This document shows, in pieces, positions 7,140-41,408 of a DNA stretch of 64,000 bases. Within the stretch, counting starts at the first letter, position 1, and each line of letters starts with the position of its first letter. A program made the translations under genes and the position numbers. Under the pieces are notes generated by a model. That model was not told the origin of the DNA. It saw nothing but the letters and a program-made list of their open reading frames with translations, and did no database searches. Origin of the DNA: Natator depressus (Eukaryota); NCBI RefSeq assembly GCF_965152275.1, contig NC_134234.1, forward strand, positions 39,458,920 through 39,522,919, read 5' to 3'.

Positions 7140-9096
7140 TCTATACTTAAAACTTAGGTCAATGAAGCTACAGCATGCAGGGGTATGAAGGCCAAAAAAG
7201 AATTTGAAGAACAGCTAGCCAAAGACTCAAAAAGTAATAGCAAAATTTTGTTTAAGTACATCAGAAGCAGGAAACCTGCTAAACAACCAGTGGGGCCACT
7301 GGACAATCAAGATGCTAAAGGAGCACTGAAGGATAAGACCATTGTGGAGAAACTAAATGAATTCTTTGCATCAGTCTTCACGGCTGTGGATGTGAGGGAG
7401 ATTCCCAAACCTGAACCATTCTTTTTAGGTGACAAATCTGAGGAATTGTCCCAGATTGAGGTGTCATTAGAGGAGGTTTTGGAACAGATTGATAAACTAA
7501 ACAGTAATAAGTCACTAGGACCAGATGGTATTCACCCAAGAGTTCTGAAGGAACTCAAATGTGAAATTGCAGAACTACTAACTGTAGTCTATAACCTATC
7601 ATTTAAATCAGCCTCCGTACCAAATGACTGGAGGGTAGCTAATGTGATGCCAATTTTTAAAAAGGTTTCCAGAGGTGATCCCAGCAGTTACAGACTGGTA
7701 AGCCTGACTTCAGTACTGGACAAACTGGTTGAAACTGTAGTAAAGAACAAAATTGTCAGGCACATAGATGAAGATAATTTGTTGGGGAAGAGTCAACATA
7801 GTTTTTGTAAAGGAAAATCATGCCTCACCTATCTACTAGAATTCTTTGAGGGGATCAACAAGCATGTGGACAAGGGGGATCCAGTGGATATAGTATACTT
7901 ACATTTTCAGAAAGCCTTTGACAAGGTCCCTCACCAAAGTCTCTTAAGCAAAGTAAGCTGTCATTGGGTAAGAGGGAAGGTTCTCTCATGGATTGGTAAT
8001 TGGTTAAAAGATAGGAAAGAAAGGGTAAGAATAAATGGTCAGGTCTCAGAATGGAGAGAGGTAATAGTAGTGGGCCCCATCGATTTCAACATATTCATAA
8101 ATGATCTGGAAAAAGGGGTAAATAGTGAGGTGGCAAAATTTGCAGATGATACAAAACTACTCAAGATAGTTAAGTCCCGGGCAGACTGCAAACAGCTACA
8201 AAAAGATCTGTCAAAACTGGGTGACTGGGCAACAAAATGGCAGATGAAATTCATTGTTGGTAAAAGCAAAGTAATACAGATTGGAAAACATAATCCCAAC
8301 TATACATATAAAATGATGGAGTCTAAATTAGCTGTTTCCACTCAAGAAAGAGATCTTGGAGTCATTGTGGATAGTTCTCTGAAAACATCCACTCAATGTG
8401 CAGAATGTTGGGAATCATTAAGAAAGGGATAGACAATAAGAAAATATTGCCTCTATAGAAATCCAGGGTATGCCCACATCTTGAATAGTGTGTGCAGATG
8501 TGGTGGCCCCATCTCAAAAAAGATATATTGGAATTGGAAAAGATTCAGAAAAGGACAACAAAAATGATTAAGGGTATGGAATGGCTTCCGTATGAGAAGA
8601 GATTAATAAGACTGGGACTTTTCAGCTTGGAAAAGAGATGACTAAGGGGGGGAATATGATAGAGGTCTATAAAATCATGACTGGTGTGGAGAAAGTAAAT
8701 GAGGAAGTGTTATTTACTCTTTCTCATAACACAAGAACTAAGGGTCACCAAATGAAATGAATAGGCAGCAGGTTTAAAACAAACAAAAGGAAGTATTTTT
8801 TCACACAACGCATAGTCAGTCTGTGGAACTCTTTGCCAGAGGATGTTGTGAAGGCCAAGACTATAACAGGGTTCAAAAAAGAACTAGGTAAGTTCATGGA
8901 GGATAGGTCCATCAATGGCTATTAGCCAGGATGGGCAGGGATGGTGTCCCTATCCTTTGTTTCCCAGAAGCTGGGAATGGGCAACAAGGGATGGATCACT
9001 TGATGATTACCTGTTCTGTTCATTCCCTTGGGGGCACCTAGCATTGGCCACTGTCAGAAGAGAGGATACTGGGCTAGATGGACTGTTGGCCTGACC
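7140..9096 (+). mobile_element. CR1-family LINE, 5'-truncated copy (RT domain and 3' UTR)
   Basis: ORF 7185-8432 shows CR1 ORF2 reverse-transcriptase motifs (FADDTKL, NPNYTYKM). The CR1 3' region follows in shifted frames and ends ...ggatactgggctagatggactgttggcctgacc. Confidence 0.8.
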
Positions 9097-11560: not shown

Positions 11561-11718
11561 CCTAATCCCCTGGTGTAGACACAGCTAGGTCAACAGAAGA
11601 ATACTTCCGTCAACCTAGTTACTATCGCTCAGGGAAGTGCAGCGACAAGAAAACTTCTTCTTGTGATATTTTTCCTATTAGAGTAATGTATTTAACTCAT
11701 TTGCATCTTTTTTCACAG

Positions 11719-11889
11719 ATAGAAAGCCAGAGATCCAGAATATTTTCTCCAGGATGCAGTTCTGTCTCTATTAAATGGCAACAGTTTGATGCAAATGCAC
11801 CAGAGCCATTGCAGGCTCCTGCTCAAATACAGTCTTTATTTAACAACGAAAGACTTCTTGTCTATGGATTTATCCCACATTGTACTCAG
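11719..11889 (+). CDS. PARP4: Coding exon after the vWA domain
   Basis: Acceptor tttttcacag|ATAGAA and donor ACTCAG|gtaagg. Frame IESQRSRIFSPGCSSVSIKWQQFDANAPEPLQAPAQIQSLFNNERLLVYGFIPHCTQ. Phase 0 to 0. Confidence 0.7.
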
Positions 11890-11945
11890 GTAAGGAATGA
11901 TACAAAGAAGCATCTTCTTTTTTGGGTGAGTAAAAATTAATATAT

Positions 11946-14297
11946 ACAGTGGAGTCGCATCTTACGCGGAGGTTAGGTTCTAAAGTCAGCACGTAAGGCG
12001 AAAATCACGTATAGTCAAAATTACCCTTAAAAATCCCTTAAATCTCCCATAAAGTACAGTATACTGTACATGGTTTTGTGTACACAATCCTTTACAGTAA
12101 TATGTATAAATGTATAATGTATACAGTAATGTACAGTATATAATAAAGAGTACATATGCAAAATATAATTTTACGGTACTGTATTTTTAATTACAGGGGG
12201 GTAATTACAGGGGGTTGTCAGGGCTTGATGTCGATCCAGGAGACAGAGATGATGGAGAGCTTGGGTGACTGAGAGCGAGTCGTAGACCAAGTGGTTGGCT
12301 CTGGTTCAGCTTGAGAAGTTGATTGCGTAGGCTCATCTGCTGCTGGTTGTTTTTCCTTGAAAAACATGGTGATCGGCAACTGTCGCTGTTGTCTCTTGAG
12401 CTGCTCAAACGTTTCTTGATGCGGTCTCAAATCATCCGTAATACTACATGTGATCCCTCGTTCCATAGAGGGATCGTATTCAGAAATCAAATCATTCAGG
12501 TGTTTCGCTGCTTGGAACACTTCAGCAAATGTATGACGATTCCAACTTGCTGGCTCTTCCTGTTCATCGTCATCATCTTAGTCTTCTGTAGACGATTTTA
12601 TCAGTTCCTCTAACTCTTCGTTAGTCAATGTTTCTCTATGGCTCTCAGTTAATTCTTCAATTTCTTCCTCAAGGATGTCAACGAAGCCATCACCACCCAC
12701 TTGCCTGGCCACCTGAACAATGCGTTTCACTTCTTTGTCAATGGTCGGGAAACGCTTAAAATCATTCACACATTCTTTCCATAGGTTTTGCCAACATGCA
12801 TTGACTGTTTCGGGCTTGATTATATCCATTGCCTGTTTAACATAAGTGATGCAATTGGCAATGTTGAAGGACTTCCAACACTCCATCACATTAAGATTAG
12901 GATCAGCATCCATAGCACTACGTATCCGTGAGATCGCAAGCCTCGTGTACGTGGCCTTGAAACAGCGAATCACGCCTTGGTCAAGAGGTTGGAGAATGGA
13001 GGTGGTATTGGGGGGGAGAAAGATGACATCAACGTCATTATGCGCAAACTGGAGTGCCACAGGGTGGCCAGGAGCATTGTCTATGATCAGCAACACTTTA
13101 AAGTCAAGTCCTTTCTCTTCGAGGTACCGCTTGACCTCCGGAATGAAACACTTGTGGAACCAATCCAGAAATAATGCTGCCGTCACCCAGCCTTTTTATT
13201 TGATTGCCAGAACACAGGCAGGAGATTTTTGTTCTTGCCTTTTAGGGCACGGGGATTTGCAGCCCTGTAGAGCAAGCCCGGCTTTATTAAATGCCCAGCC
13301 ACATTGCCACAAAACAACACAGTCACACGGTCTTTAGCTGCTTTGAAGCCAGGGTCTTGTCTTTCTGATTTCGAAATTTAAGTGTGGTTGGGCATTTTTT
13401 CTAGAAGAGCCCAGTCTGGTCAGCATTAAAAATTTGTTCCGGAAGATAGCCCTTTTCTTCTATGATTTTCTTTAATTGTTCAGGGTAGGCTTTTGCTGCC
13501 TCTTCGTTGGCAGATGCAGCTTCACCAGTAGTCTGAACTTTTTTGAGGTTGAAGCGGTTCCTAAAACTGTTAAGCCAACCTTGGCTGGCTTTGAATTCCT
13601 TCTCATCAGAAGGCTGTCCCTCTTCGGCGGGAAGTTTGAACAGCACGTAGAGGCTAAGAGCTTTTTCTCGCAACGTGTTGCCATCGATAAGCACACGTTT
13701 ACAGTTCATGCCTTCCAGCCATAAGTTTAATGCCTTTTCAGTCTTCACTAAAGTCTTATCACGCACCTGGCTTGTAACCTTAGCAGTTATTGGAGCACTT
13801 GATGCCGTGGCTTGATGAATTTCTCTCTCTCAAATCTTGATGGCACGGATGCTAGATTTGTTGCAGCCATATTTACATGCCACATTGGAGACCAACATAC
13901 CATCTCTTAATAAGTCCAACACAGCCAGTTTTTCCTCCAGCATTGGAACAGATCGCTGTTTCTTTGATTGAGCACCAGATGAAGTAGTTGGCTTGCGTTT
14001 AGGGGCCATGTTGTATGAAAAATACGTATCTTTAAACACTAGAATCACACTCAGGGCGGCGAGATGCTCACACCTCTGAGAGGCATGCAGGAACTGAGAC
14101 TGACTCAGGGAAGAGCAGATTCACGTCTCCCATCTCACACTCACTCCAGGGCATACGCTTATTGAGTGGAATGGTGGGCAGAATCGCCCGCACTATTTAC
14201 AGGTATCTTGTTATGTTTCCCTTTTTTTGCTGAGCACGTACAGTTGAATTCGCATAAGATAAGTGCGCGTATGATGCGACTCACCTATAATGCACTG
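11946..14297 (-). mobile_element. Tigger/pogo-like DNA transposon with TIRs (CENP-B-like transposase, degenerate)
   Basis: Left end cagtggagtcgcatcttacgcg and right end cgcgtatgatgcgactcacc...gcactg form terminal inverted repeats. Internal minus-strand ORFs are 13830-14048 and 13401-13766 (CENP-B/psq HTH N-terminus) and 12578-13186 (DDE_1 domain, LLIIDNAPGHP). The frame is broken between these ORFs. Confidence 0.75.
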
Positions 14298-15771: not shown

Positions 15772-16420
15772 GTGACTTCTACCAATGTGATATATGCCCC
15801 TCTGCCATATACATTGGCCAAACCGGACAGTCTACGCAAAAGAATAAATGGACACAAATCAGATGTTAAGAATTATAACATTCAAAAACCAGTCGGAGAA
15901 CACTTCAACCTCCCTGGACACTCAATTACAGACCTAAAAGTCTCAATTATTCAACAAAAAAACTTCGAAAACAGACTCCAACGAGAAACTGCAGAACTGG
16001 AATTAATTTGCAAACTGGACACCATTAAATTAGGCTTGAATAAAGACTGGGAGTAGATGAGTCATTACACAAACTAAAAACTATTTCCCCATGCTAATTT
16101 TCCCCCTACTGTTACTCACACCTTCTTCTCAACTGTTTGAAATGGACCATCCTGATTATCACTACAAAAGTGTTTTTTTTCTCCTGCTGATAATAGCCCA
16201 CCTTAATCGATTAGTCTCGTTAGAGTTGGTATGGCAATCCCATTTTTTCATGTTCTCTGCATATCTATCTATCTATCTATCTATCTTCTGACTGTATTTT
16301 CCACTGCATGCATCTGATGAAGTGGGCTTTAGCCCATGAAAGCTTATGCGCAAATAAATTTGTTAGTCTCTAAGGTACCACAAGTACTCCTCGTTCTTTT
16401 TGCTGACACAGACTAATGTG
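15772..16420 (+). mobile_element. PLE fragment: GIY-YIG endonuclease region and 3' tail
   Basis: The plus strand encodes CDICPSAIYIGQTGQS (GIY-YIG core), then a frameshift, then LRKRINGHKSDVKNYNIQKPVGEHFNLPGHSITDLKVSII...LGLNKDWE. The characteristic PLE 3' tail follows: ...catctgatgaagtgggctttagcccatgaaagcttatgcgcaaataaatttgttagtctctaaggtaccacaagtactcc... Confidence 0.7.
16263..16286. repeat. (ATCT)n microsatellite
   Basis: atctatctatctatctatctatct. Confidence 0.95.
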
Positions 16421-17052
16421 GCTACCACTCTGAAACATATATTCTCTGTAATTTTATTCTTTCAAAGTGTGTTATTTTAGTGTTTTGACTGGTCTATGCA
16501 TTTCATAATTTTTATTTCTCTTACACTTAAATTGAATTCTTTGAGTAGTGAGTTCTATAATGCCTATAATGTTCTGTCCTGGCTGGAGTAATTATCCCTA
16601 TTTAACTTTTTTAAAATATATATTATATCTAGGTTTTTTGTTTCTACTGGTGGCATACATCCGCACATACCTTGGTGCACATAACAAAATTTATTCTGCA
16701 CATGGATGGAAAAAATTAGAGGGAACATTTGATTGACACACTTTTTGTTAGCCACCAACCTTTATCATACAAGTTGTAGAGGGAATCAAACTTTAATAGA
16801 AACCATCCTCTCAACAAAATGTCGTATGTGATGTTCCTGTCATTGTGCTTAAATACATTTAGGATTCCTTTTTTGTGGGTCTTCTGTATAGATTCTTTTG
16901 TGTACCAGGGAACATGTTTTTAAAGATATGCATCTGATTACTCACAACTCCAATTCTGTTTGCATTTCTGAAAACGGAGCATCACTGAAGAAGTACTGAC
17001 AGCACGGAATGATAGGGAAAAATGAGAGGAATACATTTCTTATTTCTTTCAG

Positions 17053-17133
17053 GCAACCTTAAATGCACTAATAAATGACCAAGAATTGCAAGCAATGGTA
17101 TCAACCACTGAATTACAGAAGACAACAGGAACA
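17053..17133 (+). CDS. PARP4: Coding exon
   Basis: Acceptor tatttctttcag|GCAACC and donor GGAACA|gtgagt. Frame ATLNALINDQELQAMVSTTELQKTTGT. 81 nt. Confidence 0.65.
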
Positions 17134-17357
17134 GTGAGTTAGGCCAATGTTATTTATACATACCATATGTTAGGGGGCTTATTCCTTCACCCACTTACTT
17201 CCCTGGTCCTTCTCGCATGAACAGAGAGCAAAAATACCCGAAGTCCAAAGGTGCAAACAATTCGATGTTTATTGGGGTAAACTTCCAGCAAGCATGATTC
17301 CAGTTTCCTTTCTTAGTGTCCCCCTTTCCAGCTCTGACACCACAGAGCCTTACCTGT

Positions 17358-20417: not shown

Positions 20418-20498
20418 CTTCTCCACAAACTCACAGCAAGAGCCCTCATTAGGGATTATGAAGATGGGATACTTCATGAAAATGAAACAGAACATGAG
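20418..20498 (+). CDS. PARP4: Coding exon
   Basis: Acceptor ttttccttaatgtag|CTTCTC and donor CATGAG|gtttgt. Frame LLHKLTARALIRDYEDGILHENETEHE. 81 nt. Confidence 0.65.
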
Positions 20499-22450
20499 GT
20501 TTGTCATTCTAAAGATAAGAATATGAACTAGGAACCACTATTTTATCTCAGTTTATGCTTAAAACAAGAACTGTTAAAGGGGTTCAGTGAAATGGGGATA
20601 GGAAGAGGAGAGGTGGAGAGAATGTTTGACTTGGGAATGGAAATTGGAAGGTTGCAGTATGAATTCCATAGATTTTAAGGCTGAAATGGACCATTATGAT
20701 CATCTAGTCTGATGTCCTGGATAACACAAGCCAAAAGAACATGCCCAGTAACTTCTGCATCAAGCCCAGAACTTCTGTTTGAGCTATAGAATATCTTTTA
20801 GAAAGAGAGATAGTCTTGATTGAAAACCTTCAGGTGATGGTGAACCCATCACATCCCCAGATAAGTTCCACTTAGTTTCTGTTCAAGAATTGTCTGCTGT
20901 CGGAAATCTTTACCTCATGTAGGTACTTGTAGACTGTGATCAAGTCACTTCTTAACCTTCTGTTGGATAAACCAAATAAATTGAACTTCTTAAGTCTCTC
21001 ACTAGAAGGCATGTTTTCCACATCTCAAATCATTCTTGTAGCTCTTTTCTGAACATCCTATTTTTCAACATTCAGTTTCAGATATGTTTATAGACATGAG
21101 GGCATAATCCTGTAAACCTTTACTTGCTTGTATGTGTGAGGACCTGATTGTGCAAACTTTATTCACCTGAGTAGTCCCACTAGAAGTCAGAGTTTTAGAA
21201 GCCAGTAGGACCCTCATGTGAGAAAAGTTTGCAGGAGTGGGTCCCAAGCTTTGGGGTCAGATTGGGGGGAAATATAGTAGTGGTACTTTTCACAGCTCTG
21301 CCTACAAAATAAGCTCTATCCATGTGAGTTGGGTGTAATGCTGCATCACAGTAAATCATGCAGATGTTTAAAATATGATGGTGCATGTTTTCAGAGCTCT
21401 ACTATTTCCTTGAGCTTGTCTCCCCCTCACTGGGACTTGATTATGCCCATGTGCTCTTCTAGGCAAATTGGGGTTGATTGGGGGGAATAAATAAGTGATG
21501 GTACCTTCCAAATGCCATCCTCTTGAGGCACCAAAGTGAGACAGTTAATTCACAGATAGTAAATTTTGCAAATCTGTGACACCCCCATACTGGTTTCTTA
21601 CAAATAGTTAACATTGTTGACATTTAAATGATCGTTATTGGGCATTTGAGGTAACACCTCACTAAAATGAGTGGGCGGGGGGGTCAGTCACACATTTCAG
21701 AGCTACTGGTCCATGCTCTGCATACCAACAGAAATCTCCGCACCACTTACACTCAGTTCACATTTTTGAGATTTTCTTCACAGCCATGACAGCTAGAGGC
21801 TTACTTTATTTTCATTAAATGAAAGCTGAGATTCTGGAGAACATGATTGTTTGTTTGTTTTCAGAGAGGTCTCAGTATATCGTATGTCTGTGTACAGGAT
21901 GTTTCTGAGTCCTGAACAGGCTTGAGCATTGCCATTCCTGACTTGACACAAATTGTGTCCGATAGGTGCAAGGTGTTTTGCTTTAGTTGTGCAGCTGACA
22001 TGCTGCCCTTTAGGTTTCAGTAATGACTGTCATTGATCCAGAATCTGATAAGGAGTCATATGCTTGCACTGGAAGGAGCTGGAAGCCCAATGGAGCCCTG
22101 ATTGACTTGTGACAAGACCATTTCAGTGCAGTTTCTCTGTAAGAATTACCAATTCCAGTTTCCTCTCCCCCAGCACAAGTGGATAAATCTGCAAGTAGCT
22201 GAGAGGGTTAGGATTAGCCCCTCTCCCTTCAGAACGCTTCTAAACAGGAAGCAGGAAATTGGGTACACAAACATAACCACATTTGCACTGCTTAGAAATA
22301 GCTGCAAGATGAGCTAGCTTACTTATATCCATAGTGCATAAGAACATATTATGTATATTCAGTTTTGACATTGACACTTATTCTAGTGAATATTGTTTTC
22401 ACCTGTATGTTTTGTTTTTAAACATATTTTGTCATTATATAACAACCTAG

Positions 22451-22546
22451 ATGAAGAAACATACTTTGAAAGTCCTGATTATTAACCTCAGCATGGAGAA
22501 CTCCATCATAACCCAGTTTACAAGCTTTGTGGCAGTAGAAAAAAGG
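22451..22546 (+). CDS. PARP4: Coding exon carrying the VIT/vWA-family motif SFVAVEKR
   Basis: Acceptor aacaacctag|ATGAAG and donor AAAAGG|gtatgt. Frame MKKHTLKVLIINLSMENSIITQFTSFVAVEKR. Confidence 0.7.
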
Positions 22547-24070
22547 GTATGTGTTTCCATTAAAATATCTCATTACTGTCTATATGTCTCTAAAAATTCT
22601 TTAGAAAATAACTGAAAAGAAAAACAATTACTGTAATCTTGTAAGAATTAAAGCACATATTGCTTAATATTATCACAGTGAACAATTTTAGTTCTTTTAC
22701 AGAAGAACTAAAATTATTTTTGCAAAAGCTTGTGTTCTTTGATGCTTTTTGAATTATATGTTACTTTCCTTATGAAGCTTCTTTTATATCATACGTTGTT
22801 GGAGTACCTAGGCATCCAAACAAAGTCTGTTTCTATCCCATCCACTACCCAGACTGGATGTTTGCAAGTGAACCAACAGAGAGGCATAATCTCTGTGTTT
22901 ATTTTGGAGATACTTGCTTTTTTAATGATTTAGAAACTGCAATTTTCTTTTTGTATCTGTGTATGCATGTGGCAGAGTTCAGAACTGTGCAAGTGTTCTG
23001 ACTTTGGGACTATATCTGTAGGCACAACTCCTATAAAGGCACCATCTCTGGTCCAGAAAGAACTTTTTAATCTAGAAGAACAATACTTTTACCCTGTAGT
23101 GCTGCAACTGTAATTGAAAGAAACTGTTTGGATTGCAGGCAGCAAGTACTGTGTCTTCCCATATGTCTGTACAGCATCTAGCACGTTAGGAACTATTATA
23201 GTATAAGTAATACTAATAGTTATTAATTATTATTTATTTAGGATTATAAGTATACTAAAGGAAAATAATCAATTCCCTATTACGGTATAATTATCTGAAT
23301 GTCATGGAGGGCATTGAGTAAGTTGGGATAACTTAAGGAACAGGAGACGTCCATATTTTGGACCATTACATTGTACTGCATTTAAAACTAAAAATAGGCT
23401 GGCACAGATTTTGTTCATAGAAATAAATATTGTTTTGTTTGTGCCTTTTAAGAATATAACTTATACATTTGACAGATGTCATCGCATGTATAATATCCCA
23501 GCAATCCTATGTAATAGTTATTGGTGGAATTATTGTCCCTTTCTTGTAAATAGGGCTCCTTAATCAGCCAAAGATTTACTGTTAAGCTCTGTGTGGCACC
23601 CCTCCACACTTGGCCACTACCTCCCTAGCAAAAATCTAGTCAGAGCTTTCACTCTTCTGGCAGTTCTTGCTCTGATTTTCAGACAATGTAATCATCTGTT
23701 TTGTTACCTCCTGGTAATGATCTTTATATAATACAAATTTTATAAATAAAGTGCCATTCTACTCAGGCTCTCTGATTACTGTGAAATATCATAAACAACA
23801 GTTAAACGTAAACAGTATAAACTTGGCAGTATAAAAATCAGATAACCTGCTAAAAAGCATACTGGTTCCAATACATTGGAAAACATCTTTATCATATACA
23901 TGTATAATAAATCAGGTCATGTGTCTTGTACATATATCAGAAAAAAGGAAATTTAAACATCATCTTTGTATATTAGGATTCTGTACATTCATCTACCATA
24001 TTCCAGACCTCTGCATTATACTCACAGAAGAAATACTCTTTTCTTTTCGTAATCTACAATATGTTGGTGT

Positions 24071-25020
24071 GTTTGGTTGCTCTTAACCATTGACTTATAT
24101 ACGGGAGTTGTGATGGGGAAGTGACACATGAGTAACAGCTGACATCCAAAATTAAAAACTGTCTGATTGATCTGCCCGCTGAAAGCAAGTGAGAGGGTAA
24201 TTTCTGAACTGAAGTTACATAAGATACAGAAGAGGTTTCTCAAAATACTTGGAGGTGCACTGCCAGTGTTGTGTGCCAGTCCATTTACTACCAATAGTGT
24301 GTTATGATACGACAACCCTTAATGCAGTCAGGCATTATAAAGTTACATTTACTCCGTGTTTGTGTATACTGAGCATCTTTTGTATACTGAATGCACCTCC
24401 TCTCTATATTTCCTCGCAAGTTTCACCCAGCATTTGACTCTCAACCTTACATTGTCTGATAGAGAAGGAATCTCTGGCATAACAAGCATCACTTTTAAGG
24501 ATTATAATAAAATTAAAGACAGTTCTCTAGTTTGTAATTCTGTTGCGTTTTAATTTAGGATGTTAATGAAGTTCAGCATGCTGGTCTTCCAAACATTCTT
24601 GAACTTATAGCTGAGGAAGATATAGACTTTTTACCCTACATGGACTGGGAACATGAGACATCTGGACATGGATACCTGTCTTCTAATAGAGGAGTGGGAT
24701 TTGGCAGATGTGAATCGGTAAATATGCTTTATGTGTTCTTGTTTTTAACATTTTTTGTGTATTACCCAGTTGTGGTAGTAGATGGTTTATAAGGTAGCAG
24801 TTGGTAGTTGTTTATAAAGTCTGCACCATTTCTTATTATTCTGGATGCAATTAATTTCATAAATGTTTGTGTGAAGTGCAAAAAATCAGAGTACTCTCTC
24901 CCAAAGAAAGGCAAGGTACATAAAAGGTGGTGTGGCATCAGGCCCCATTGCAGCAGAGATCTTTGAGAGAGAAGAGGATTCTAGTGGCCCTTTACTCTCT
25001 TCCAGGATAAATTCTTCCCT
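24071..25020 (+). repeat. Segmental tandem duplication, unit 1 (intron plus exon 24560-24718)
   Basis: Nearly identical to 26884-27822 from gtttggttgctcttaaccattgac through ...ccaggataaattcttccct. Spacing is about 2.8 kb. Confidence 0.85.
24560..24718 (+). CDS. PARP4: Coding exon, copy 1 of a tandemly duplicated exon
   Basis: Acceptor ttttaatttag|GATGTT and donor GAATCG|gtaaat. Frame DVNEVQHAGLPNILELIAEEDIDFLPYMDWEHETSGHGYLSSNRGVGFGRCES. 159 nt, phase 0 to 0. Confidence 0.65.
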
Positions 25021-26883
25021 TTCCATCCAGGGTCTTATACCATGCTTTCATGCTGCTGTTTCCCTCTCTTGGGAATATATACTTTATATATACTGCGCAT
25101 ATATATATATGCTTACTTATTAACAAGGAATGTACAGAAAACAAAAAATAGTTTCTTTGCTTATAGCCCCAAGCCTCTTTGGGTCTAGTGCTAGCTAAAG
25201 ATCTCTCTCCCTTGCTTTTTCAGGGTTTTATACCATACTTACATTACAGGCTGCTGCTTCACTTTTTTGTGCCATGTCTACACTACCAATTTGTGTCAAC
25301 AGAAGTGATGCTGACATAATAAAAATCATAATTTCGTGTTCATTCTTGCTCCCTCTGTTGGCAGATCATGTCCACGGTGTGGCCTCCCTCCGATCCACAG
25401 GGGGAGGAACCACTTTATGTGCCTGGGTGGGTGGAGTCAGGCCGGGTTCACCCTTCTCACTGGAAATTGAGAGACAGGACGGGAAGTACAAAAAGAGGAA
25501 CCTTCAGCTCAGTTGGAGCCGAGCCAGGGCAGGAGACAGGCGAATATTGCTCGCTGCTGGCCTCTTACTCTGCTGCTGAACCAAGCGGTGCCCTGACCCC
25601 AGAGGAGACCAAGTCCAAGGAGGAGCTGCTGATGGCTGTGTACCCCCAGGAGATGGACGACACCTACAGAGCCCAGGTACCAAACAAAGAGGTAGTAGAA
25701 AGTGGCCCAGGGACACTAGACCATAGTCTGGTTGCATGGTTGCCTGAATCCAGGTCTGTGTGTTTCAGGCGGATCCCCACTGACCCACTGACAGAACATT
25801 CTGCCACTTATAGCCTGGGGCTGAGAACCAGTGGAGTAGGGAGGGCCTGGGTTCCCCTACCCCCTGGTGTTAAACCTACCCCAGGGGTGGCAGCCTCCCC
25901 ACCATAGGTGAAAAGGCCTGTGTTTGTCTGCTGTCTGCCAGATCTGAGACAACAATCTGTGTAGTGCTCTGCCCTGCACGAGGGCCAGAGCCTATAGCCT
26001 GCTTGTTAGCTCTGCTGTGCTGGAGAGCCAGAGCCCACAGACGGTTTGGTGTGCCACCCCACCGAGAGGGTCAGGGCATTAGCACCTGATTTGCTAATTC
26101 CCCTGATGTTAAGCAGTGACCCCAGTGACATAATGAGGCAGTGTGGCTTCTCTCCGACCCAGATGGGGAGGGACAACCACCACCGCACTACATACCCCTT
26201 TTTGACCCAAGCAGCTAATCAAAATTTGAGGCCCTGGTATTCCAGTTGGGGGTAGAAATTGATGAAAGACTCTGCATCAAAAAATATCCTGATCTTGCTT
26301 ATTAACAAGGAATGTATGAGGTCCTGGGTCCCCGAAGGTAGGAGGAACCAGGAAACAACAAACAGTTTCTTTGCTTATAGCCCCAAGCCTCCTTGGGTCT
26401 AGTGCTAGCTAAAGAGCTCTCTCCCTAGTTTTTTCCATGGTCTTATACCATGCTTTCAGGCTGCTGCTTCCCTTTCTTGCTGTTTGTCTCTTTGGGATTG
26501 GGTATGAACGCACCCTACAATTAACATAACTGGCAGGATATGTCAAGCAGGAGCCCCTGCCCACCCAAGACAAAAGCATCTGTGAACCCACCCAGGGAAC
26601 ATGCATACACTCCTTGCCGAAACCCCATTCACCACTCAGTCCAAAACTCCTGGATGGGTTCACAACCCCTTATGGCTTAGGTGAGGAGGTCGTGCTTAAC
26701 TTACCCTGACAGTCATGTTAATTGTAAGAGCGCAGTCACATCTAATTTCAAAGATGTTTTAACTAAGCCCATAACAATACCTTCCCTTCCACCCTGCTAT
26801 ACACATCCTCACCCAAGATCCCACTATGGATAAGGTCCTGTGTAAATCATGATTTCATGGATTACATGGAAATCCATGAAACA

Positions 26884-27822
26884 TGTTTGGTTGCTCTTAA
26901 CCATTGACTTATATACGGGAGTTGTGATGGGGAAGTGACACATGAGTAACAGCTGACATCCAAAATTAAAAACTGTCTGATTGATCTGCCCGCTGAAAGC
27001 AAGTGAGAGGGTAATTTCTGAACTGAAGTTACATAAGATACAGAAGAGGTTTCTCAAAATACTTGGAGGTGCACTGCCAGTGTTGTGTGCCAGTCCATTT
27101 ACTACCAATAGTGTGTTATGATACGAAACCCTTAATGCAGTCGGGCATTATAAAGTTACATTTACTCCGTGTTTGTGTATACTGAGCATCTTTTATATAC
27201 TGAATACACCTCCTCTCTATATTTCCTTGCAAGTTTCACCCAGCATTTGACTCTCAACCTTATATTGTCTGATAGAGAGGGAATCTCTGGCATAACAAGC
27301 ATCACTTTTAAGGATTACAATAAACTTGAAGACAGTTCTCTAGTTTGTAATTCTGTTGTGTTTTAATTTAGGATGTTAATGAAGTTCAGCATGCTGGTCT
27401 TCCAAACATTCCAATGGCTCCAGAACATTTAGACTTTTTACCCTACAAGAACTGGGAGCATGATACATCTGGATACCTGTCTTCTAATAGAGGAGTGGGA
27501 TTCGGCAGAAGTGAATCGGTAAATACGCTTAATGTATTCTTGTTTTTAACATTTTTTGTGTATTACCCAGTTGTGGTAGTAGATGATTTATAAGTTAGCA
27601 GTTGGTAGTTGTTTATAAAGTCTGCACCATTTCTTATTATTCTGGATGTAATTAATTACATAAATGTTTGTGTGAAGTGCAAAAAATCAGAGTACTCTCT
27701 CCCAAAGAAAGGCAAGGTACATAAAAGGTGGTGTGGCATTAGGCCCCATTGCAGCAGAGATCTTTGAGAGAGAAGAGGATGCTAGTGGCCCTCTACTCTC
27801 TTCCAGGATAAATTCTTCCCTG
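26884..27822 (+). repeat. Segmental tandem duplication, unit 2 (intron plus exon 27372-27518)
   Basis: Paralog of 24071-25020. Identity is high in the intronic parts, with divergence concentrated in the exon. Confidence 0.85.
27372..27518 (+). CDS. PARP4: Coding exon, copy 2 of the duplicated exon (in-frame paralogous exon)
   Basis: Same splice signals as copy 1, inside a duplicated block. Frame DVNEVQHAGLPNIPMAPEHLDFLPYKNWEHDTSGYLSSNRGVGFGRSES. 147 nt, phase 0 to 0. The sequence cannot show whether it is spliced in. Confidence 0.45.
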
Positions 27823-28059: not shown

Positions 28060-28270
28060 ACCCACAATATACTGTACTTGTGGCACCTTAGAGACTAACC
28101 AATTTATTTGAGCATAAGCTTTCATGAGCTACAGCTCACTTCATCGGATGAAGTGAGCTGTAGCTCACGAAAGCTTATGCTCAAATAAATTGGTTAGTCT
28201 CTAAGGTGCCACAAGTACTTCTTTTCTTTTTGCGAATACAGACTAACACGGCTATTACTCACAATATACT
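28060..28270. repeat. Perfect palindrome made of two inverted PLE 3' tails
   Basis: ggcaccttagagactaaccaatttatttgagcataagctttcatgagctacagctcacttcatcggatgaagtgagctgtagctcacgaaagcttatgctcaaataaattggttagtctctaaggtgcc. The centre is near 28144. Confidence 0.85.
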
Positions 28271-28909
28271 GCTACCCCTTGTTGACCCAAACAGCCAGTA
28301 AAAGTTTGAGGCCTTGGGGATGTTCTGGTTGGGGGTAGAAATTGATGAAAGAGTCTGGTATATTTGTTAATGCAGTCTTGCTTATTAACAAGGAATGTTC
28401 AAGGTCCTGTGTCTCCAAAGGCAGGAGGAACCAGAACACAAAAAATAGTTTCTTTGATTATAGCCCCAAGGCTCTTTGGGTCTAGTGCTAGCTAAAGATC
28501 TCTCTCCCTTGCTTTTTCAGGGTCTTATACCATACTTACATTACAGGCTGCTGTTTCACTCTTTTGGGCCATGTCTACACTACCAATTTGTGTCGACAAA
28601 AGTGATGTCGACACAATAAAAATCACAATTCCATGTTCACACTTGCTCCCTCTGTCGCCAGATCATGTCCACAGTGGGGGCACCATCATCGACAGTGTGA
28701 ATAATGCACTGTGAGTACCTATCCCACAGTCCTTCTGTCACTAGGTGTTGTGGGATGACGGAGTGAATCATGGCACATCTTGGGACGTGTTAAATATCCC
28801 GTGATGCATTGCTTTCTGTCCCAGCACTCCATGAGCTTCCGACTTCCTTTTGCGGCGTTTTTTCAACGGCCCTTCTTTGCTGTGAACCCGGGCATTTTTG
28901 TGAGAAGGG

Positions 28910-30160
28910 TTGGATCCCGCACTGCTCTCCTATGCTCTGTTAACTGTCATGAAGACATTGCGGATGGCAGTGCAGTTAATCGTGAAGTTTCTAACTGAGG
29001 AAGACTCACAGGTGCCTGACGTTCTGCGTGATATGAATAGGAGCAACTTTAGATTGCTTTTGGCATTCACTGAGCAGGTGCATAGGATAGACCGTCACTT
29101 TTGGGCTCATGAAACAAGCACTGAATGGTGGGATCGCATCCTCATGCAGGTGTGGGATGATGAGCAGTGGCTATAGAACTTTCGGGTGCAGAAAGCCAGC
29201 TTCCTGGAACTATGCTTGGAGCTTGTCCCAGACATGCGGCTCAAGGACACCAGAATGAGAGCTGCCGTCTTGGTAGAAAAGCGTGTGGCAATTGCTGTGT
29301 GGAAGCTGGCAACTCCAGACTGCTACCAGTCAGTCATGAATCAATTTGGAGTGGGGAAGTTGACCGTTGGGGCTGCGTTAATGCAAGTGTGCAGGGCAAT
29401 AAATTGCATCCTGCTACGAAGGACTGTGACTCTGGGAAATGTGTGTGAAATAGTGGACAGCTTTGCAGAAATGGGGTTCCCTAACTGTGGAGGGGCGATA
29501 GATGGCACACGTATTCCAATTTTGGCACCAGACCACCTTGCGACGGAGTACATCAATAGGAAGGGATACTTCTCCATGGTGTTGCAAGCGTTTGTGGATC
29601 ACCATGGGCATTTCACTGACATCAGCATAGGGTGGTCTGGGAAGGTGCATGATGCACACATCTTCAGAAACAGCGGCCTCTACAGAAAGCTGCAAGCAGG
29701 GACTTTCTTTCCTAACCAGAAGATTGGGGGGGGAGGAGGGGGTGTTGAAATGCGCATAGTGATCCTGCGGGACTCTGCGTACCCCTTGCAGCTGTGGCTC
29801 ATGAAACCTTACACGGGACACTTGGACAGCAGTAAGGAGCAGTTCAACAACAGGCTCAATAGGTGCCGGATGACAACTGAATGTGCCTTTGGCAGATTAA
29901 AGGCACACTGGCGATGCCTTCATGGTGGGTTGGACCTCACTGAGGATAATATTCCTGTGGTCATAGCCATGTGCTGTATGTTGCATAATCTCTGTGAAGC
30001 TAAGGGTGACAGGTTTGCTCAGGAGTGGAGTGCTAAGGCAGACCGCTTGGCCGCTCATTTTGAGCAGCCAGATACCAGGGCTGTCAGAGGTGCACAGAGG
30101 GGAGCTATTCGAATCAGGGAGGCTGTGAGGCAGCACTTTGACAATGACCACCATTAATAT
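28910..30160 (+). pseudogene. Harbinger (HARBI1-like DDE_Tnp_4) transposase with a single in-frame TAG
   Basis: ORFs 28910-29176 and 29186-30157 are in the same frame and separated only by TAG at 29177-29179 (..DDEQWL*NFRVQKASF..). The second ORF has the HARBI1-like motifs GAIDGTHIPI, DAYPL and LHNLC. Total length is about 416 codons. Confidence 0.75.
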
Positions 30161-32078: not shown

Positions 32079-32890
32079 ACAGGAAATGGAATTTCAAAAA
32101 TTCCCAGGGCTTCTAATGGGCAGGGGCGGATGGTTGTTTACCTGGCTGCGGGGCAGTGGAGTTCAAACTGCTGACCAGAGCAGTCAGAATGGGCATTGTG
32201 GGACACTTCCTGGAGGCCAATTAAAGAGATGAAATGAAGCATGGTGTCTACACTTGCATTTTGTCAACCAAAATTTAGAGGAAAAAGACATAAATCTCTC
32301 ATGAGGGTGGATGTATTTTGTCGCCAAAACCAGGCATTTTCCCTGACAAAAGTCACCTTGCAGTGTCTACACTGTTTGGGTCGACAAACAGCAATTTTGG
32401 TGACAAAACTTGGTAGTGTAGGCAAGGCCTTGCTGTTTGCCTCTTTGAGATTGGGTATGAATGCACTCTACAATTAACATGACTGTCATGATAAGTTAAG
32501 CAGGACCCACCCCTCATAAAACAAAAGCAGTTGTGAACCCACCCAGGGAACATACATATCAAAACAACATTCAGAATAACCCCATTAACCACTCAGTCCA
32601 AAACTTCTGGGTAGGTTCACACTCCTTTTGTCTTTGGGGGGCATTCTGCCAACCTTATCCTGACAGTCATGTTAATTGTAGAGTCCATTCACACCCAATT
32701 TCAAAGATGTTTTAATTTAGCCCATAACAAGGTTTCACCCAGCTCATAAGAATACCTTCCCTTTCACCCTGTTCTACAGGTCCTCAGCCAAGATCCCACA
32801 ATGGGTAAGATCCTGTATAAATCATGAGTTCATGAATTGCATTGAAATTGTGAAATACCTCACTATTAAAAATGTGCACCTTATTTCTAG

Positions 32891-33807
32891 TCCGAATTTG
32901 CCTGGCTTCAGCTGCAAGGAAAGAAGTTGCTTGTTTAATTGACAAGAAGAATAGGCTTTGTGTTGAGCATGATGATCATTGGATTGATACTGAGTCTAAT
33001 GAAAATATGGTCTTAATCACAAAAAAAAAAGTTGGTTTAAACTCCAGAAATATTTTGTTTTCTTATAATTTTACTCGACAGGTTCCTTTTCATGCAGTAA
33101 CTAGTGGTTTTTCTGACCATTTCCTAACTGGAGGAGATAAACAGCTGAAAAGTCTCCAATTTCGAAGTGACAAAGAAGTTCCCTTGGTTGAAGAGTGCAT
33201 TTTACCAGATTCTACTGAATTGAGTTTTATAAAGGCTGCTAAAGTTAAATATGATCCTGGTGCCGCTGGAGTTGGACTATTTGGGTCTATCTCTGTGCCA
33301 CAACCAAAATTCAGCCTGCATGGTCAATCACTTTTAAACATCAGGCTTCCCAAGCCTCCAGCTAGTAAGCCTTTTTCTTTTCAAGTTTCTATACCTCCTC
33401 CTTGCCCTCTTCCTGGTGCTGCTTCTTGCCCTCCTCGCCCTCCTCCTTGCGCTCCTCCTTGCCATCCTCCTTTCCCTCCTCCTTTCCCTCATGAATTCAC
33501 TCAGGGGCTTTGTTCAGATTTAAAGAGTTCATTTACTCCTGTGGGCAGAACCCTGAAGAAGGCAAATTTTGAAACACAAGTTACTCCTGAAGTTCTTACT
33601 TCATCAGCTAGGTTCAGACTAGGATCACCAATGCTACAAACTGCACCAAAGTGTGGAGAAAAACTTCATCGTGAGCTCAGCAAGGTTAGTAGAAATCTGA
33701 ATTATGCTTTGCCTTTCTCTGATGTTGAACATGCAGCCAAAACAAACAGGAGTAGTTGCTCTCGATCGCATTGGACTTCTGCATCAAGGGATACTGAAGA
33801 AGAGGAG
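32891..33807 (+). CDS. PARP4: Large proline-rich coding exon (305 codons)
   Basis: Strong acceptor ccttatttctag|TCCGAA and donor GAGGAG|gtaaat. There is a single long open frame, RICLASAARKEVAC...SIPPPCPLPGAASCPPRPPPCAPPCHPPFPPPFPHEF...DTEEEE. It needs 1 nt from the upstream exon (phase 1), which does not match the phase-0 end of the preceding exons (see findings). Confidence 0.55.
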
Positions 33808-34045: not shown

Positions 34046-34165
34046 GATCTTTTCTTAACAGCAATGAGGAAAAAACAGCTTGGTAAAACATCACCACAGA
34101 TGAGGATTCAACAAAGCAAACCAAGTGCTGTAACCTGGACTCAGATTTTTGAGCTCCAAAATCAG
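34046..34165 (+). CDS. PARP4: Coding exon
   Basis: Acceptor gttttgtttttaaag|GATCTT and donor AATCAG|gtacag. Frame DLFLTAMRKKQLGKTSPQMRIQQSKPSAVTWTQIFELQNQ. Phase 0 to 0. Confidence 0.6.
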
Positions 34166-40006: not shown

Positions 40007-41408
40007 ATGTGCAGTACCTGCAAAACCAGGCGAGGAAGCAACAATAGCACGATTACTATACTGCTGAGGACATGGATCCAGACATTCTTAGAAGCACAGC
40101 ATGTGGCAATTGGGAGATCATGGTGGCGTTGGGCCAGGTTCATGCCGTGGAACGCTGATTCTGGGCCCGAGAAACAAGCACAGACTGGTGGGACCGCAAA
40201 GTGTTGCAGGTATGGGATGATTCCCATGGCTGCGAAACTTTCGTATGCATAGGGCCACTTTCATGGAACTTTGTGACTTGCTGTCCCCTGCCCTCAAGCA
40301 CAAAGACACCAAACTGAGAGCAGCCATCACAGTTGAGAAGCAAGTGGCCATAGCCCTGTGGAAGCTTGCAACGTCCAACAGCTACCGGTCAGTCGGGAAT
40401 CAGTTTGGAGTGGGCAAATGAGGGGAGAGGGATAGCTCAGTGGTTTGAGCATTGGCCTGCTAAACCCAGGGTTGTGAGTTCAATCGCTGAGGGGCCATTT
40501 AGGGATCTGGGGCAAAAAAAATTGGGGATTGGTCCTGCTTTGAGCAGGGGGTTGGACTAGATGACCTCCTGAGGTCCCTTCCAACTCTGATATTCTATGA
40601 TTCTATGAAATCTACTGTGGGGGCTGCTGTGCTGCAAGTAGCCAATGCAGTCATTGACCAGCTGCTATCAAGGGTAGTGACTTTGGGAAATGTGCAGATC
40701 ATCGTGGATGGCTTTAATGCACTGAGGTTCCCTAACTATGGCGGGGCGATAGGTGGAACGCATATCCCTATCTTGGCCCCAGAGCATCGGGGTGGCCAGT
40801 GTGTAAACTGCAAGGGGTACCTTTCCATGGTGCTGCAAGCACTGGTGGATCACAAGGGACGTTTCACCGACATCAACGTGGGATGGCCGGGAAAGGTGCA
40901 TGACGCTCGCATCTTCAAGAACTCTAGTCTGTTTGAACAGCTGCAGGAGGGGACTTACTTCCCAGACCAGAAAATTACTGTTGGGGATGTTGAAATGCCT
41001 ATAATTATCCTCGGGGACCCAGCCTACCCCTTAATGCCATGGCTCATGAAGCCGTACACAGACACCCTGGACAGTAGTAAGGAGCAGTTCAACTATAGGC
41101 TGAGCAAGTGCGGAATGGAGTTAGAATGTGCTTTTGGATGTTTGAAAGTGCACTGGTGCAGTCTACTGACTTGGTTAGATCTCAGCACAACCAATATTCC
41201 AATCGTAATTGCTGCTTGTTGTGTGCTCCATAATATCTGTGAGAGTATGGGGGAGACGTTTATGGTGGGGTGGGAGGTTGAGACAACTCGCCTGGCAGCC
41301 AATTTCGCACAGCCAGACAACAGGGCAATTAGAAGAGCGCAGCAGGGCGCACTGCACATCAGAGAAGCTTTGAAAGCCAGTTTCATGACTGGCTGGGGTA
41401 CGGTGTGA
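40007..41408 (+). pseudogene. Harbinger transposase, copy 2, disrupted
   Basis: It is homologous to 28910-30160 (..FWARETSTDWWDRKVLQVWDDS.., ..PWLRNFRMHRATFMELC.., GAIGGTHIPILAPEHRG..). It has a stop near 40140, a frameshift near 40225, and a SINE insertion at 40414-40608 that splits the ORF. Confidence 0.8.
40414..40608 (+). mobile_element. tRNA-derived SINE with a CR1-type tail, inserted in the transposase ORF
   Basis: tRNA-like head gggatagctcagtggtttgagcattggcctgctaaacccagggttgtgagttcaatc (A and B boxes). The tail ggttggactagatgacctcctgaggtcccttccaactctgatattctatgattctatg is shared with the CR1 3' UTRs at 9097-9182. Confidence 0.8.

What the first reader, a model, noticed from the sequence alone, without database searches (positions are those of the whole stretch)
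24071..27822. In-frame tandem duplication of a coding exon; the exon copies differ more than their flanking intron copies
Two units about 950 bp long (24071-25020 and 26884-27822) lie about 2.8 kb apart and are nearly identical in their intronic parts. Each contains an exon with the same splice sites. The exon copies are 159 and 147 nt, both multiples of three and phase 0 to 0. They differ by a replaced central patch (ILELIAEEDID in one, PMAPEHLD in the other), a 6-nt deletion, and several nonsynonymous changes. Keeping the reading frame while diverging faster than the surrounding intron suggests both exons are coding. They could be included in tandem or used as mutually exclusive alternatives.
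Basis: seen in the sequence. Interest (0 to 1): 0.7.

Follow-up and report, generated by a model that had tools for sequence, protein, structure and literature searches.

The report
Duplicated alternative exon in turtle PARP4
A sea-turtle copy of the vault-particle gene PARP4 carries a real tandem duplicate of one small coding exon; the altered second copy is used as a coding exon in a related turtle's RefSeq annotation, so this is an ordinary but clean example of new protein variants arising by exon duplication.

Summary
Two ~950-bp units (24070-25020 and 26884-27821) are 97.5% identical in their intronic parts. The gene is PARP4 (vault PARP) of a turtle close to Caretta. The exon is the one just upstream of PARP4's hypervariable largest exon. 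Copy A keeps the motif ELIA(K/E)ED(V/I)DFLPYM.W, conserved from fish to mammals. Copy B is the derived one. RefSeq PARP4 isoform X6 of Caretta caretta contains the B-type exon and no A-type exon, so B is an annotated coding exon. The next exon starts at 33082, not 32891. The excess exon divergence is statistically real, but it comes from one 25-nt patch. Synonymous divergence is raised too (dN/dS about 0.66). This fits a mosaic history (gene conversion of the flanks, a complex mutation, or both) better than positive selection. The same exon was duplicated independently in a coral snake and a tailed frog, and there both copies sit in the protein. This is a new member of a known kind and of moderate interest.

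The parts
22451..22546 (+). Upstream constitutive PARP4 exon (MKKHTLKVLIINLSMENSIITQFTSFVAVEKR), ending in phase 0
   Evidence: tblastn with tuatara, human-like and Caretta proteins, 84-100% identity
24070..25020 (+). Duplicated unit A (intron - exon A - intron)
   Evidence: Direct repeat with 26884-27821. The leftmost 243-260 nt are identical between the copies
24559..24717 (+). Exon A, 159 nt, phase 0/0, ancestral-type copy (DVNEVQHAGLPNILELIAEEDIDFLPYMDWEHETSGHGYLSSNRGVGFGRCES)
   Evidence: Splice sites TTTAATTTAG| and |GTAAAT. Orthologous to single-copy exons in gecko L002 13572-13688 and tropicbird L003 17659-17808, with a near-identical acceptor. Keeps the motif conserved from fish to mammals
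24598..24668 (+). Divergent core of the exon pair (A coordinates): 12 of the 14 substitutions and both 6-nt indels. They flank an unchanged 18-nt stretch (24623-24640) that covers most of the invariant D-F-L-P-Y codons
   Evidence: Position list, density profile, clustering permutation, invariant columns D55 L57 P58 Y59
25112..25424 (+). Second collinear repeat block downstream of unit A. It pairs with 28377-28720 at only 87-92% identity, and a third partial copy lies at 26193-26479
   Evidence: blastn. The block occurs nowhere else in the 64-kb window
26476..26873 (+). Interspersed repeat (internal inverted repeats) abutting the left edge of unit B. A sibling copy lies at 32429-32848, 78-88% identical
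26884..27821 (+). Duplicated unit B
27372..27518 (+). Exon B, 147 nt, phase 0/0, derived copy (DVNEVQHAGLPNIPMAPEHLDFLPYKNWEHDTSGYLSSNRGVGFGRSES)
   Evidence: Same splice sites as A. 47/49 identical to the exon used in Caretta caretta PARP4 isoform X6. 9 of 11 polarisable substitutions and the patch-adjacent 6-nt deletion are on the B lineage
27411..27432 (+). Replaced patch in exon B (CCAATGGCTCCAGAACATTTAG), with no donor sequence elsewhere in the window
   Evidence: Pattern search with up to 3 mismatches finds only itself
28074..28218 (.). Perfect-palindrome MITE-like insertion downstream of unit B, absent at the corresponding place after unit A
   Evidence: Inverted repeat I1, 72-nt arms, 99% complementary. 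Other copies at 16311-16416 and 49735-49853
33082..33807 (+). Next PARP4 exon: the large, Pro-rich, hypervariable exon (homologue of human exon 30), entered in phase 0
   Evidence: Acceptor ttttactcgacag|GTTCC opens a 248-codon frame. The acceptor is nearly identical to the tropicbird's annotated one. It is the junction used in Caretta X6...GRSEL|VPFHAVTSGF. The 3' end at 33807 is approximate (tblastn alignment end)
32891..32938 (+).
   Evidence: In phase 0 it reads SEFAWLQLQGKKLLV then a stop. It is not used by the Caretta model

Best explanation
The window holds the 3' part of PARP4 (vault PARP), from the VWA domain to the stop codon at about 57490, + strand. The source is a turtle very close to, but not the same as, Caretta caretta.

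A ~0.95-kb piece of the gene was copied 2.8 kb downstream into the following intron. It contains the small phase-0/0 exon that follows the VWA domain and sits just upstream of the hypervariable largest exon. Because the B-type sequence is shared with Caretta, the copying most likely happened before the split from the Caretta lineage.

Copy A kept the ancestral sequence. Copy B took nearly all the changes: a 25-nt complex patch, two in-frame 6-nt deletions and a few point changes. B still keeps the invariant DFLPY core, the open frame and both splice sites.

Both copies have the same splice signals and both are 3n long. The spliceosome can therefore use either or both without breaking the frame. 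They behave as alternative cassette exons that give PARP4 variants differing in a ~50-residue segment. Use of B without A is shown by annotation in Caretta. Use in this species, and A+B tandem inclusion, are inferred.

The 'exon more diverged than intron' pattern is best explained by history and mutation rather than by positive selection on the peptide. The unit is a mosaic. Its flanks were probably kept similar by gene conversion, while the exon core escaped. That core may itself include one complex mutational event.
For: Gene identity:
- Named PARP4 homologues.
- The exon chain maps onto the window.

Duplication and exon anatomy.

A is ancestral and B is derived:
- Motif alignment.
- Nucleotide polarisation: 9 B-derived, 2 A-derived, 3 ambiguous. 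The outgroups carry the two codons missing from B next to the patch.

B is a coding exon: Caretta RefSeq isoform X6 has ...VAVEKR|DVNEVQHAGLPNIPMAPEHLDFLPYKDWEHDTSGYLSSNRGVGFGRSEL|VPFHAV..., with no A-type exon.

Single copy in gecko and tropicbird.

Not simple positive selection: dN = 0.092, dS = 0.139, intron = 0.026.

Mosaic structure:
- 8 substitutions in 18 nt, p < 5e-5.
- A 260-nt identical run, p = 0.00055.
- A neighbouring collinear block at only 87-92% identity.
- Precedent for 'exons and synonymous sites more diverged than introns' arising from intronic gene conversion: gibbon L/M opsins, PMC3213168.

Tandem inclusion of a duplicate of this very exon is tolerated elsewhere:
- Micrurus carvalhoi A0A2H6MVH8, two 65-aa units, 63/65 identical.
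- Ascaphus truei RefSeq XP_075448424.1, with two genomic exon copies at L004 62894-63031 and 95373-95510.

Nothing enforces exclusivity:
- Both exons are 3n.
- The A-B intron is 2654 nt.
- Complementary arms are only at chance level.
Against: - There are no transcript data for the source species. The other Caretta isoforms (X1-X5) could not be retrieved, so A-only or A+B forms are unverified.
- Caretta might have lost exon A altogether.
- Gnomon isoforms can rest on thin evidence.
- With only ~2.5% divergence, an intact frame and intact splice sites in either copy are weak evidence of selection. P(no stop after 14 random substitutions) = 0.57, and the two deletions being multiples of 3 adds perhaps a further 1/9.
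- The gene-conversion component is inferred from two sequences only.
- The 87-92% block could be independent insertions of a repeat family rather than part of an older duplication.
- B replaces residues that are conserved from fish to mammals (ELIA.ED) with prolines, which could equally indicate relaxed constraint.
Confidence: 0.7

Rival explanations
1. Adaptive diversification. After the duplication, exon B was remodelled by positive selection. It borders the pathogen-facing hypervariable region of PARP4, and selection now keeps the two exon cores distinct against gene conversion.
For: - The exon sits immediately upstream of the largest exon, which is under recurrent positive selection and varies in length among vertebrates (PMC4038475).
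- Nearly all B-specific changes are shared with Caretta. They therefore arose in the short interval between duplication and species split, with only one further amino-acid change afterwards in each lineage.
- The same exon was duplicated independently in a snake and a frog.
- In the frog, all 7 exon differences are non-synonymous and the exon is again more diverged than its flanks: 5.1% vs about 2.9%.
- An 18-nt stretch covering most of the invariant DFLPY codons is untouched in B.
Against: - dN/dS between A and B is about 0.66 overall and below 1 within the patch (6 N : 2 S changes; pN 0.36, pS 0.46).
- Synonymous sites are raised as much as non-synonymous ones.
- Eight substitutions within 18 nt next to a 6-nt deletion look like one complex mutation.
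- The counts are tiny. The frog's 7 N : 0 S has p about 0.13 under neutrality.
Confidence: 0.2
2. Exon B is a decaying pseudo-exon in this species. It is a neutral by-product of an intronic segmental duplication, rarely or never included, and its open frame is luck.
For: - B has lost residues conserved from fish to mammals and gained two prolines.
- dN/dS is not distinguishable from 1.
- The low divergence means that frame and splice sites could survive by chance.
Against: - A RefSeq isoform of a close relative uses the B-type exon as CDS, in place of A.
- The B-type sequence has stayed almost unchanged since the split from Caretta (47/49).
- Both deletions are multiples of three and the splice sites are intact. 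The pyrimidine tract is even improved by C>T at -13.
Confidence: 0.1
3. Strictly mutually exclusive exon pair (a tandem duplicated exon substitution): one and only one of A or B is in every mRNA.
For: - The Caretta X6 isoform has B without A.
- Tandem exon duplications are the classic source of mutually exclusive exons (PMC9741552 and PMC9013439).
Against: - No known enforcing mechanism is evident. Both exons are 3n, so double inclusion stays in frame and escapes NMD.
- The intron between them is 2654 nt, so there is no steric block.
- No shared selector/docking complementarity above chance.
- In the snake and the frog, both copies of the homologous exon are included together.
Confidence: 0.15
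4. Assembly artefact: two haplotypes or a mis-expanded repeat placed in tandem.
For: None positive. This cannot be excluded formally without reads.
Against: - No gaps (N = 0).
- The copies differ by 34 substitutions and 3 indels.
- The sequence after unit A (25021-26883) is not homologous to that after unit B, apart from a diverged repeat block. B's flank also carries its own MITE insertion.
- The B-type exon exists independently in the Caretta RefSeq annotation, and the A-type matches the outgroups.
Confidence: 0.03

Closest known systems
Tandem duplicated exon substitution / mutually exclusive exon pairs (e.g. the 236 human events analysed in PMC9741552; reviewed in PMC9013439)
   Same: - Adjacent homologous exons of nearly equal length and the same phase.
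- They arose by tandem duplication of an exon plus flanking intron.
- One isoform carries the second copy instead of the first.
- Independent (convergent) duplication of the same exon in different lineages is also a reported feature of such events.
   Different: - Most known events are ancient, the changes are conservative, and exclusivity is enforced. Here the duplication is young (2.5% intronic divergence).
- The changes in B are drastic and hit conserved residues.
- The exons are 3n.
- No enforcing mechanism was found.
- In two other lineages both copies are included together.
Primate L/M opsin genes: introns homogenised by gene conversion while central exons stay diverged (gibbons, PMC3213168)
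   Same: - Duplicate copies whose exons, including synonymous sites, are more diverged than their introns.
- A mosaic of very similar and diverged tracts.
   Different: - Those are whole-gene duplicates studied with population and multi-species data and formal GENECONV tests.
- Here there is a single exon pair, one genome, and a divergence signal dominated by one 25-nt patch. Conversion is therefore inferred, not demonstrated.
Rapid evolution of PARP4's largest exon (human exon 30) under recurrent positive selection (Daugherty et al. 2014, PMC4038475)
   Same: Same gene and the adjoining region. The duplicated exon's 3' half and the next exon form the disordered, length-variable segment between the VWA domain and the MVP-interaction domain.
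   Different: That work concerns point substitutions in the largest exon in mammals. It does not report duplication of the upstream exon. I could not show positive selection here.
Independent duplications of the same PARP4 exon found here: Micrurus carvalhoi A0A2H6MVH8 and Ascaphus truei XP_075448424.1
   Same: - The same exon, starting at the same boundary after ...FVA(V/I)EKR, is present twice.
- In the frog the downstream copy is again the one that departs from the invariant LPY..W motif, and the exon is again more diverged than its flanks.
   Different: - In both, the two copies are included together in the protein.
- The snake copies are almost identical (63/65).
- The frog copies are 32 kb apart with a small exon between them.
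- In the turtle, the only isoform I could see has B alone.

Membership tests
PARP4 (vault poly-ADP-ribose polymerase) gene | Sequence orthology to named PARP4 proteins across the VWA-to-C-terminus region | tested here: met
   Hits named PARP4 from gecko, camel, birds, snakes and fish. Caretta RefSeq PARP4 isoform X6 maps exon by exon at 93-100% identity where the alignment is confined to exons, from 1776 to the stop at 57490
PARP4 (vault poly-ADP-ribose polymerase) gene | Domain order VIT - VWA - disordered region - PARP4_MVP-ID | tested here: met
   Precomputed Pfam hits on homologues: VWA and PF26156 PARP4_MVP-ID. VWA on P0010. The VIT and catalytic parts lie upstream of the window and were not seen here
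Tandem exon duplication | Two adjacent homologous exons in the same gene and strand, with duplicated flanking intron | tested here: met
   951-bp collinear repeat containing the exon, 2.8 kb apart
Tandem exon duplication | Same phase, and length compatible with the reading frame | tested here: met
   159 and 147 nt, phase 0/0, no stops, identical AG| and |GT contexts
Tandem exon duplication | Single copy in outgroups (lineage-specific origin) | tested here: met
   One copy in the Gekko kuhli and Phaethon lepturus loci even at permissive tblastn thresholds
Mutually exclusive exon pair | Transcripts contain exactly one of the two exons | tested here: inconclusive
   The only retrievable close-relative isoform (Caretta X6) has B and not A. 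The other isoforms and all transcript data are inaccessible
Mutually exclusive exon pair | A mechanism that prevents double inclusion (frame shift with NMD, steric hindrance, or competing RNA structures) | tested here: not met
   Both exons are 3n. The intron between them is 2654 nt. Only three complementary matches of 11-13 nt to outside sequence, about 2 expected by chance
Concerted evolution by gene conversion with an unconverted exon island | Divergence is heterogeneous along the duplicate, with tracts of identity and an island of high divergence that includes synonymous sites | tested here: met
   260-nt identical run, p = 0.00055. Core 12/59 diverged. dS = 0.139 vs intron 0.026
Concerted evolution by gene conversion with an unconverted exon island | Across species, intron sequences group by species while exon cores group by copy | not testable with these tools
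   No genomic sequence of a second turtle could be fetched. Only the Caretta protein shows that the B-type core predates the species split

The most novel reading that the evidence does not exclude
The exon bordering PARP4's hypervariable, putatively pathogen-facing region is a recurrent target of tandem duplication in tetrapods (sea turtles, a coral snake, a tailed frog). In sea turtles, two sharply different versions of a motif conserved from fish to mammals are kept as alternative exons by selection against gene conversion. Exon duplication would then be a repeated evolutionary route for diversifying the vault PARP interface.
Probability: 0.2. Interest if true: 0.6.

Novelty: new member of a known kind. 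Interest (0 to 1): 0.4.

Why it matters
Young tandem exon duplications are rarely caught while both copies still have intact, identical splice signals. Most known duplicated-exon substitution events are ancient.

This one offers a dated, natural example in a gene thought to be involved in host-pathogen conflict. It lies right next to the exon known to evolve under positive selection, and there are two independent parallels in other tetrapods. It gives a concrete, cheap test, by counting five splice junctions in turtle RNA-seq, of how a newly duplicated symmetric exon is handled: both, either, or neither.

It also shows that 'exon more diverged than intron' should not be read as positive selection without looking at synonymous sites and at clustering.

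For annotation, it corrects the exon chain: the next exon starts at 33082.

Tried and rejected
1. Rejected: a stop after 15 codons, not used in Caretta, and the bird orthologue supports 33082.

2. Donor for the B patch elsewhere in the window (micro-conversion or template switch). None found with up to 3 mismatches.

3. Positive selection as the cause of excess exon divergence. Not supported by Nei-Gojobori counts.

4. Competing RNA-structure (selector/docking) model for exclusivity. Only chance-level complementarity.

5. A functional RNA inside the duplicated intron as the reason for retention. No Rfam family anywhere in the window.

6. Simple tandem duplication of a 2.8-kb unit. Rejected: the sequence after unit A is not homologous to that after unit B except for a diverged repeat block, and I could not resolve the full local history.

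7. Fetching orthologous turtle or tuatara loci:
   - Tuatara fragment and Caretta X6 are not on record.
   - The Micrurus protein has no genomic record.
   - The frog RefSeq gene is too long for DNA retrieval. The shorter GenBank model worked.

8. The word-indexed protein search did not return full-length PARP4s. All hits were 845 aa or shorter. Only the exhaustive representative search found the Caretta protein.

9. P0080, with 6 matched stretches, is an unrelated repetitive protein and a false lead. P0106, P0127 and P0151 have two stretches because of retained intron sequence, not duplication.

10. Pfam gives no domain for the exon A/B segment itself.
Full report
**1. Observation**

A self-comparison of 22-34 kb finds one long collinear direct repeat, 24070-25020 vs 26884-27821. 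The repeat finder splits it into three segments because of small indels. Similarity begins abruptly at 24070/26884: 4/20 matches just outside, then 243 identical bases.

Inside each unit lies an open, phase-0/0 exon flanked by TTTAATTTAG| and |GTAAATA:
- Exon A is 24559-24717 (159 nt).
- Exon B is 27372-27518 (147 nt).

The intronic parts differ at 20 of 791 aligned sites, plus a 1-nt indel. The exons differ at 14 of 147 sites, plus two 6-nt deletions in B. Fisher p = 2.4e-4.

**2. The gene**

The upstream exon plus exon A retrieves a tuatara fragment and human-like fragments. One of the latter clusters with a macaque UniRef entry named 'PARP4 MVP-ID C-terminal domain-containing protein'. A longer query built from well-defined exons retrieves many proteins named PARP4, from gecko, camel, birds, snakes and fish.

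The exhaustive representative search returns a 1766-aa protein, 90% identical to the 85-aa query. It is RefSeq XP_074983372.1, PARP4 isoform X6 of the loggerhead turtle Caretta caretta.

Mapped on the window, it uses these exons:
- 1776-1976
- 2185-2295
- about 3200-3451
- about 5438-5629
- 11710-11892
- 17032-17136
- 20418-20501
- 22451-22546
- 27372-27518
- 33082-33807
- 34046-34165
- 53243-53350
- 55528-55659
- 57317-57490 (stop)

Conserved exons are identical. The large exon differs by about ten residues and a 15-residue indel. I infer that the window comes from a close relative of Caretta, probably another cheloniid, and not from Caretta itself.

**3. The neighbouring exons**

The acceptor ttttactcgacag|GTTCC at 33081/33082 opens a 248-codon, proline-rich frame. 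It is almost base-for-base the acceptor of the tropicbird's annotated next exon. It is also the junction in the Caretta protein...GRSEL|VPFHAVTSGF.

This large exon is the homologue of human exon 30. Daugherty et al. showed that exon to be disordered, variable in length among vertebrates and under recurrent positive selection (PMC4038475). The duplicated exon is therefore the one immediately upstream of PARP4's hypervariable region.

**4. Which copy is ancestral**

The segment (L)ELIA(K/E)ED(V/I)D(F/I)LPY(M/I).W is conserved from fish to mammals. D, L, P and Y are invariant in my alignment.
- Copy A keeps the motif: LELIAEEDIDFLPYMDW.
- Copy B reads PMAPEHLDFLPYKNW.

With tropicbird and gecko exon DNA as outgroups, 9 substitutions are B-derived, 2 are A-derived and 3 are ambiguous. 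The outgroups also carry the two codons missing from B next to the patch. Gecko and tropicbird have a single copy of the exon with the same boundaries. The tuatara fragment reads through the same GTAAAT donor.

**5. Is B a coding exon?**

Yes, by annotation in a close relative. Caretta isoform X6 contains DVNEVQHAGLPNIPMAPEHLDFLPYKDWEHDTSGYLSSNRGVGFGRSEL between ...VAVEKR and VPFHAV.... This matches window exon B at 47/49 residues, and there is no A-type exon.

It follows that the patch, both deletions and the M>K, E>D and C>S changes predate the split of the two turtles. Only D>N (window) and S>L (Caretta) came later.

I could not retrieve isoforms X1-X5 or the Caretta locus. I therefore cannot say whether Caretta also has exon A, or whether A-only or A+B isoforms are annotated.

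**6. Why the exon is more diverged than the intron**

The excess is real, but it does not show the signature of positive selection.
- Nei-Gojobori counts give 10 non-synonymous and 4 synonymous differences: dN = 0.092, dS = 0.139, ratio about 0.66.
- Both values lie far above the intronic 0.026.
- Within the patch, pN = 0.36 and pS = 0.46.
- Eight substitutions fall within 18 nt next to a 6-nt deletion. This occurred in 0 of 20,000 permutations.
- With the patch counted as one event, exon and intron no longer differ (p = 0.17).

The unit is also a mosaic:
- The leftmost 243-260 nt are identical (p = 0.00055).
- Divergence rises towards the exon core, 24598-24668 (12/59 substitutions plus both deletions), and falls again.
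- Just beyond the right end, a second collinear block (25112-25424 vs 28377-28720) is only 87-92% identical. This block occurs nowhere else in the window apart from a third local copy.

Two non-exclusive explanations fit:
- (a) The duplication is older than the 2.5% suggests. Gene conversion has kept the flanks similar while the exon core escaped. This signature is documented for gibbon L/M opsins, where exons and synonymous sites are more diverged than introns (PMC3213168).
- (b) A one-off complex mutation created the patch. No donor for it exists in the window.

I cannot separate these two with a single genome.

**7. How the pair is likely to work**

- Both exons have the same acceptor and donor. 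B's pyrimidine tract is slightly better (C>T at -13).
- Both are multiples of three.
- The intron between them is 2654 nt.
- I found no complementarity above chance that could act as a selector/docking system: three matches of 11-13 nt, about two expected.

Nothing visible forces mutual exclusivity. The default expectation is independent cassette behaviour: A, B or A+B, all in frame. The Caretta isoform shows B without A.

**8. Parallels**

The same exon has been duplicated independently at least twice more.
- In the coral snake Micrurus carvalhoi (UniRef A0A2H6MVH8), a 65-residue unit starting exactly at the exon boundary (...VAIEKR|EADEDQ...) is present twice, head to tail, 63/65 identical. 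The public data for this species are Trinity transcript assemblies (PMC6368836), so I infer the protein is transcript-derived.
- In the tailed frog Ascaphus truei, the RefSeq protein XP_075448424.1 and a GenBank model carry two copies. The genome has two 138-nt exons with identical splice contexts at L004 62894-63031 and 95373-95510, inside a 654-bp, 96%-identical block.
- In the frog, too, the exon (7/138 differences, all non-synonymous) is more diverged than its flanks (about 2.9%). The downstream copy is the one that departs from the invariant motif (LLPYMDW > LFPLMDC).

**9. Comparison with what is known, and novelty**

Tandem exon duplication giving alternative or mutually exclusive exons is a well-described class (PMC9741552 and PMC9013439). 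Intron homogenisation around diverged exons is also known. The full-text library holds nothing on exon duplication in PARP4 or on PARP4 in sea turtles, and PMC9741552 does not mention PARP4.

This is therefore a new member of a known kind. It is noteworthy for three reasons: it is young, it lies next to the positively selected exon, and it recurs in three tetrapod lineages.

**10. Verdict**

- Observation: confirmed, with small coordinate corrections.
- Interpretation: supported in substance. B is an annotated coding exon in a close relative and A is the conserved orthologue.
- The 'faster than the intron, hence selected' argument does not hold.
- Actual exon usage in the source species remains to be measured.

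Noticed in passing
window 33370-33505 (within the large PARP4 exon 33082-33807): A 12-nt-periodic CCT/CTC-rich repeat encodes the proline-rich stretch PPPCPLPGAASCPPRPPPCAPPCHPPFPPPFP. Caretta's protein is 15 residues shorter exactly here. The hypervariable exon therefore changes length by repeat slippage between close turtle relatives.
   Followed up: partly
window 29177-30154 (+) and 40503-41405 (+): Two long open frames with a DDE_Tnp_4 (PIF/Harbinger-type) transposase domain (E = 4e-33 and 2.5e-29) sit inside PARP4 introns.
   Followed up: partly
window 28074-28218; also 16311-16416 and 49735-49853: A near-perfect 145-nt palindrome (72-nt arms, 99% complementary), MITE-like, is present in three copies in the window. 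One is inserted just downstream of unit B and absent after unit A.
   Followed up: partly
window 7158-8429 (+) and 9186-10979 (-): Two LINE-type reverse-transcriptase open frames (RVT_1, E = 4e-18 and 3e-32) lie in opposite orientation in the intron between the VWA-domain exons.
   Followed up: partly
window 12581-13829 (-): Tigger/pogo-like DNA transposon remnant: a DDE_1 endonuclease (E = 2e-28) and an HTH_Tnp_Tc5 DNA-binding domain (E = 2e-12).
   Followed up: partly
L004 (Ascaphus truei) 62859-63510 vs 95340-95991, and 60463-61311 vs 94500-95352: The frog's independent duplication of the same PARP4 exon lies in a 654-bp block at 96% identity. It is preceded by an 865-bp block at only 87%. 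This two-tier identity pattern resembles the turtle's (97.5% unit next to an 87-92% block).
   Followed up: partly
P0034 (Caretta caretta XP_074983372.1) residues 1-107: Isoform X6 starts 107 residues upstream of the conserved PARP4 start (MTVGIFANCVFFLK...), with a low-complexity, Cys/Leu/Arg-rich extension. This looks like translated 5' UTR or an alternative first exon, so this isoform model may be atypical.
   Followed up: no
window 26476-26873 and 32429-32848: Two copies (78-88% identical) of a repeat with internal inverted repeats. One abuts the left edge of unit B. The other lies about 230 nt upstream of the large exon's acceptor at 33082. Whether this element played a part in the duplication is unknown.
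   Followed up: no
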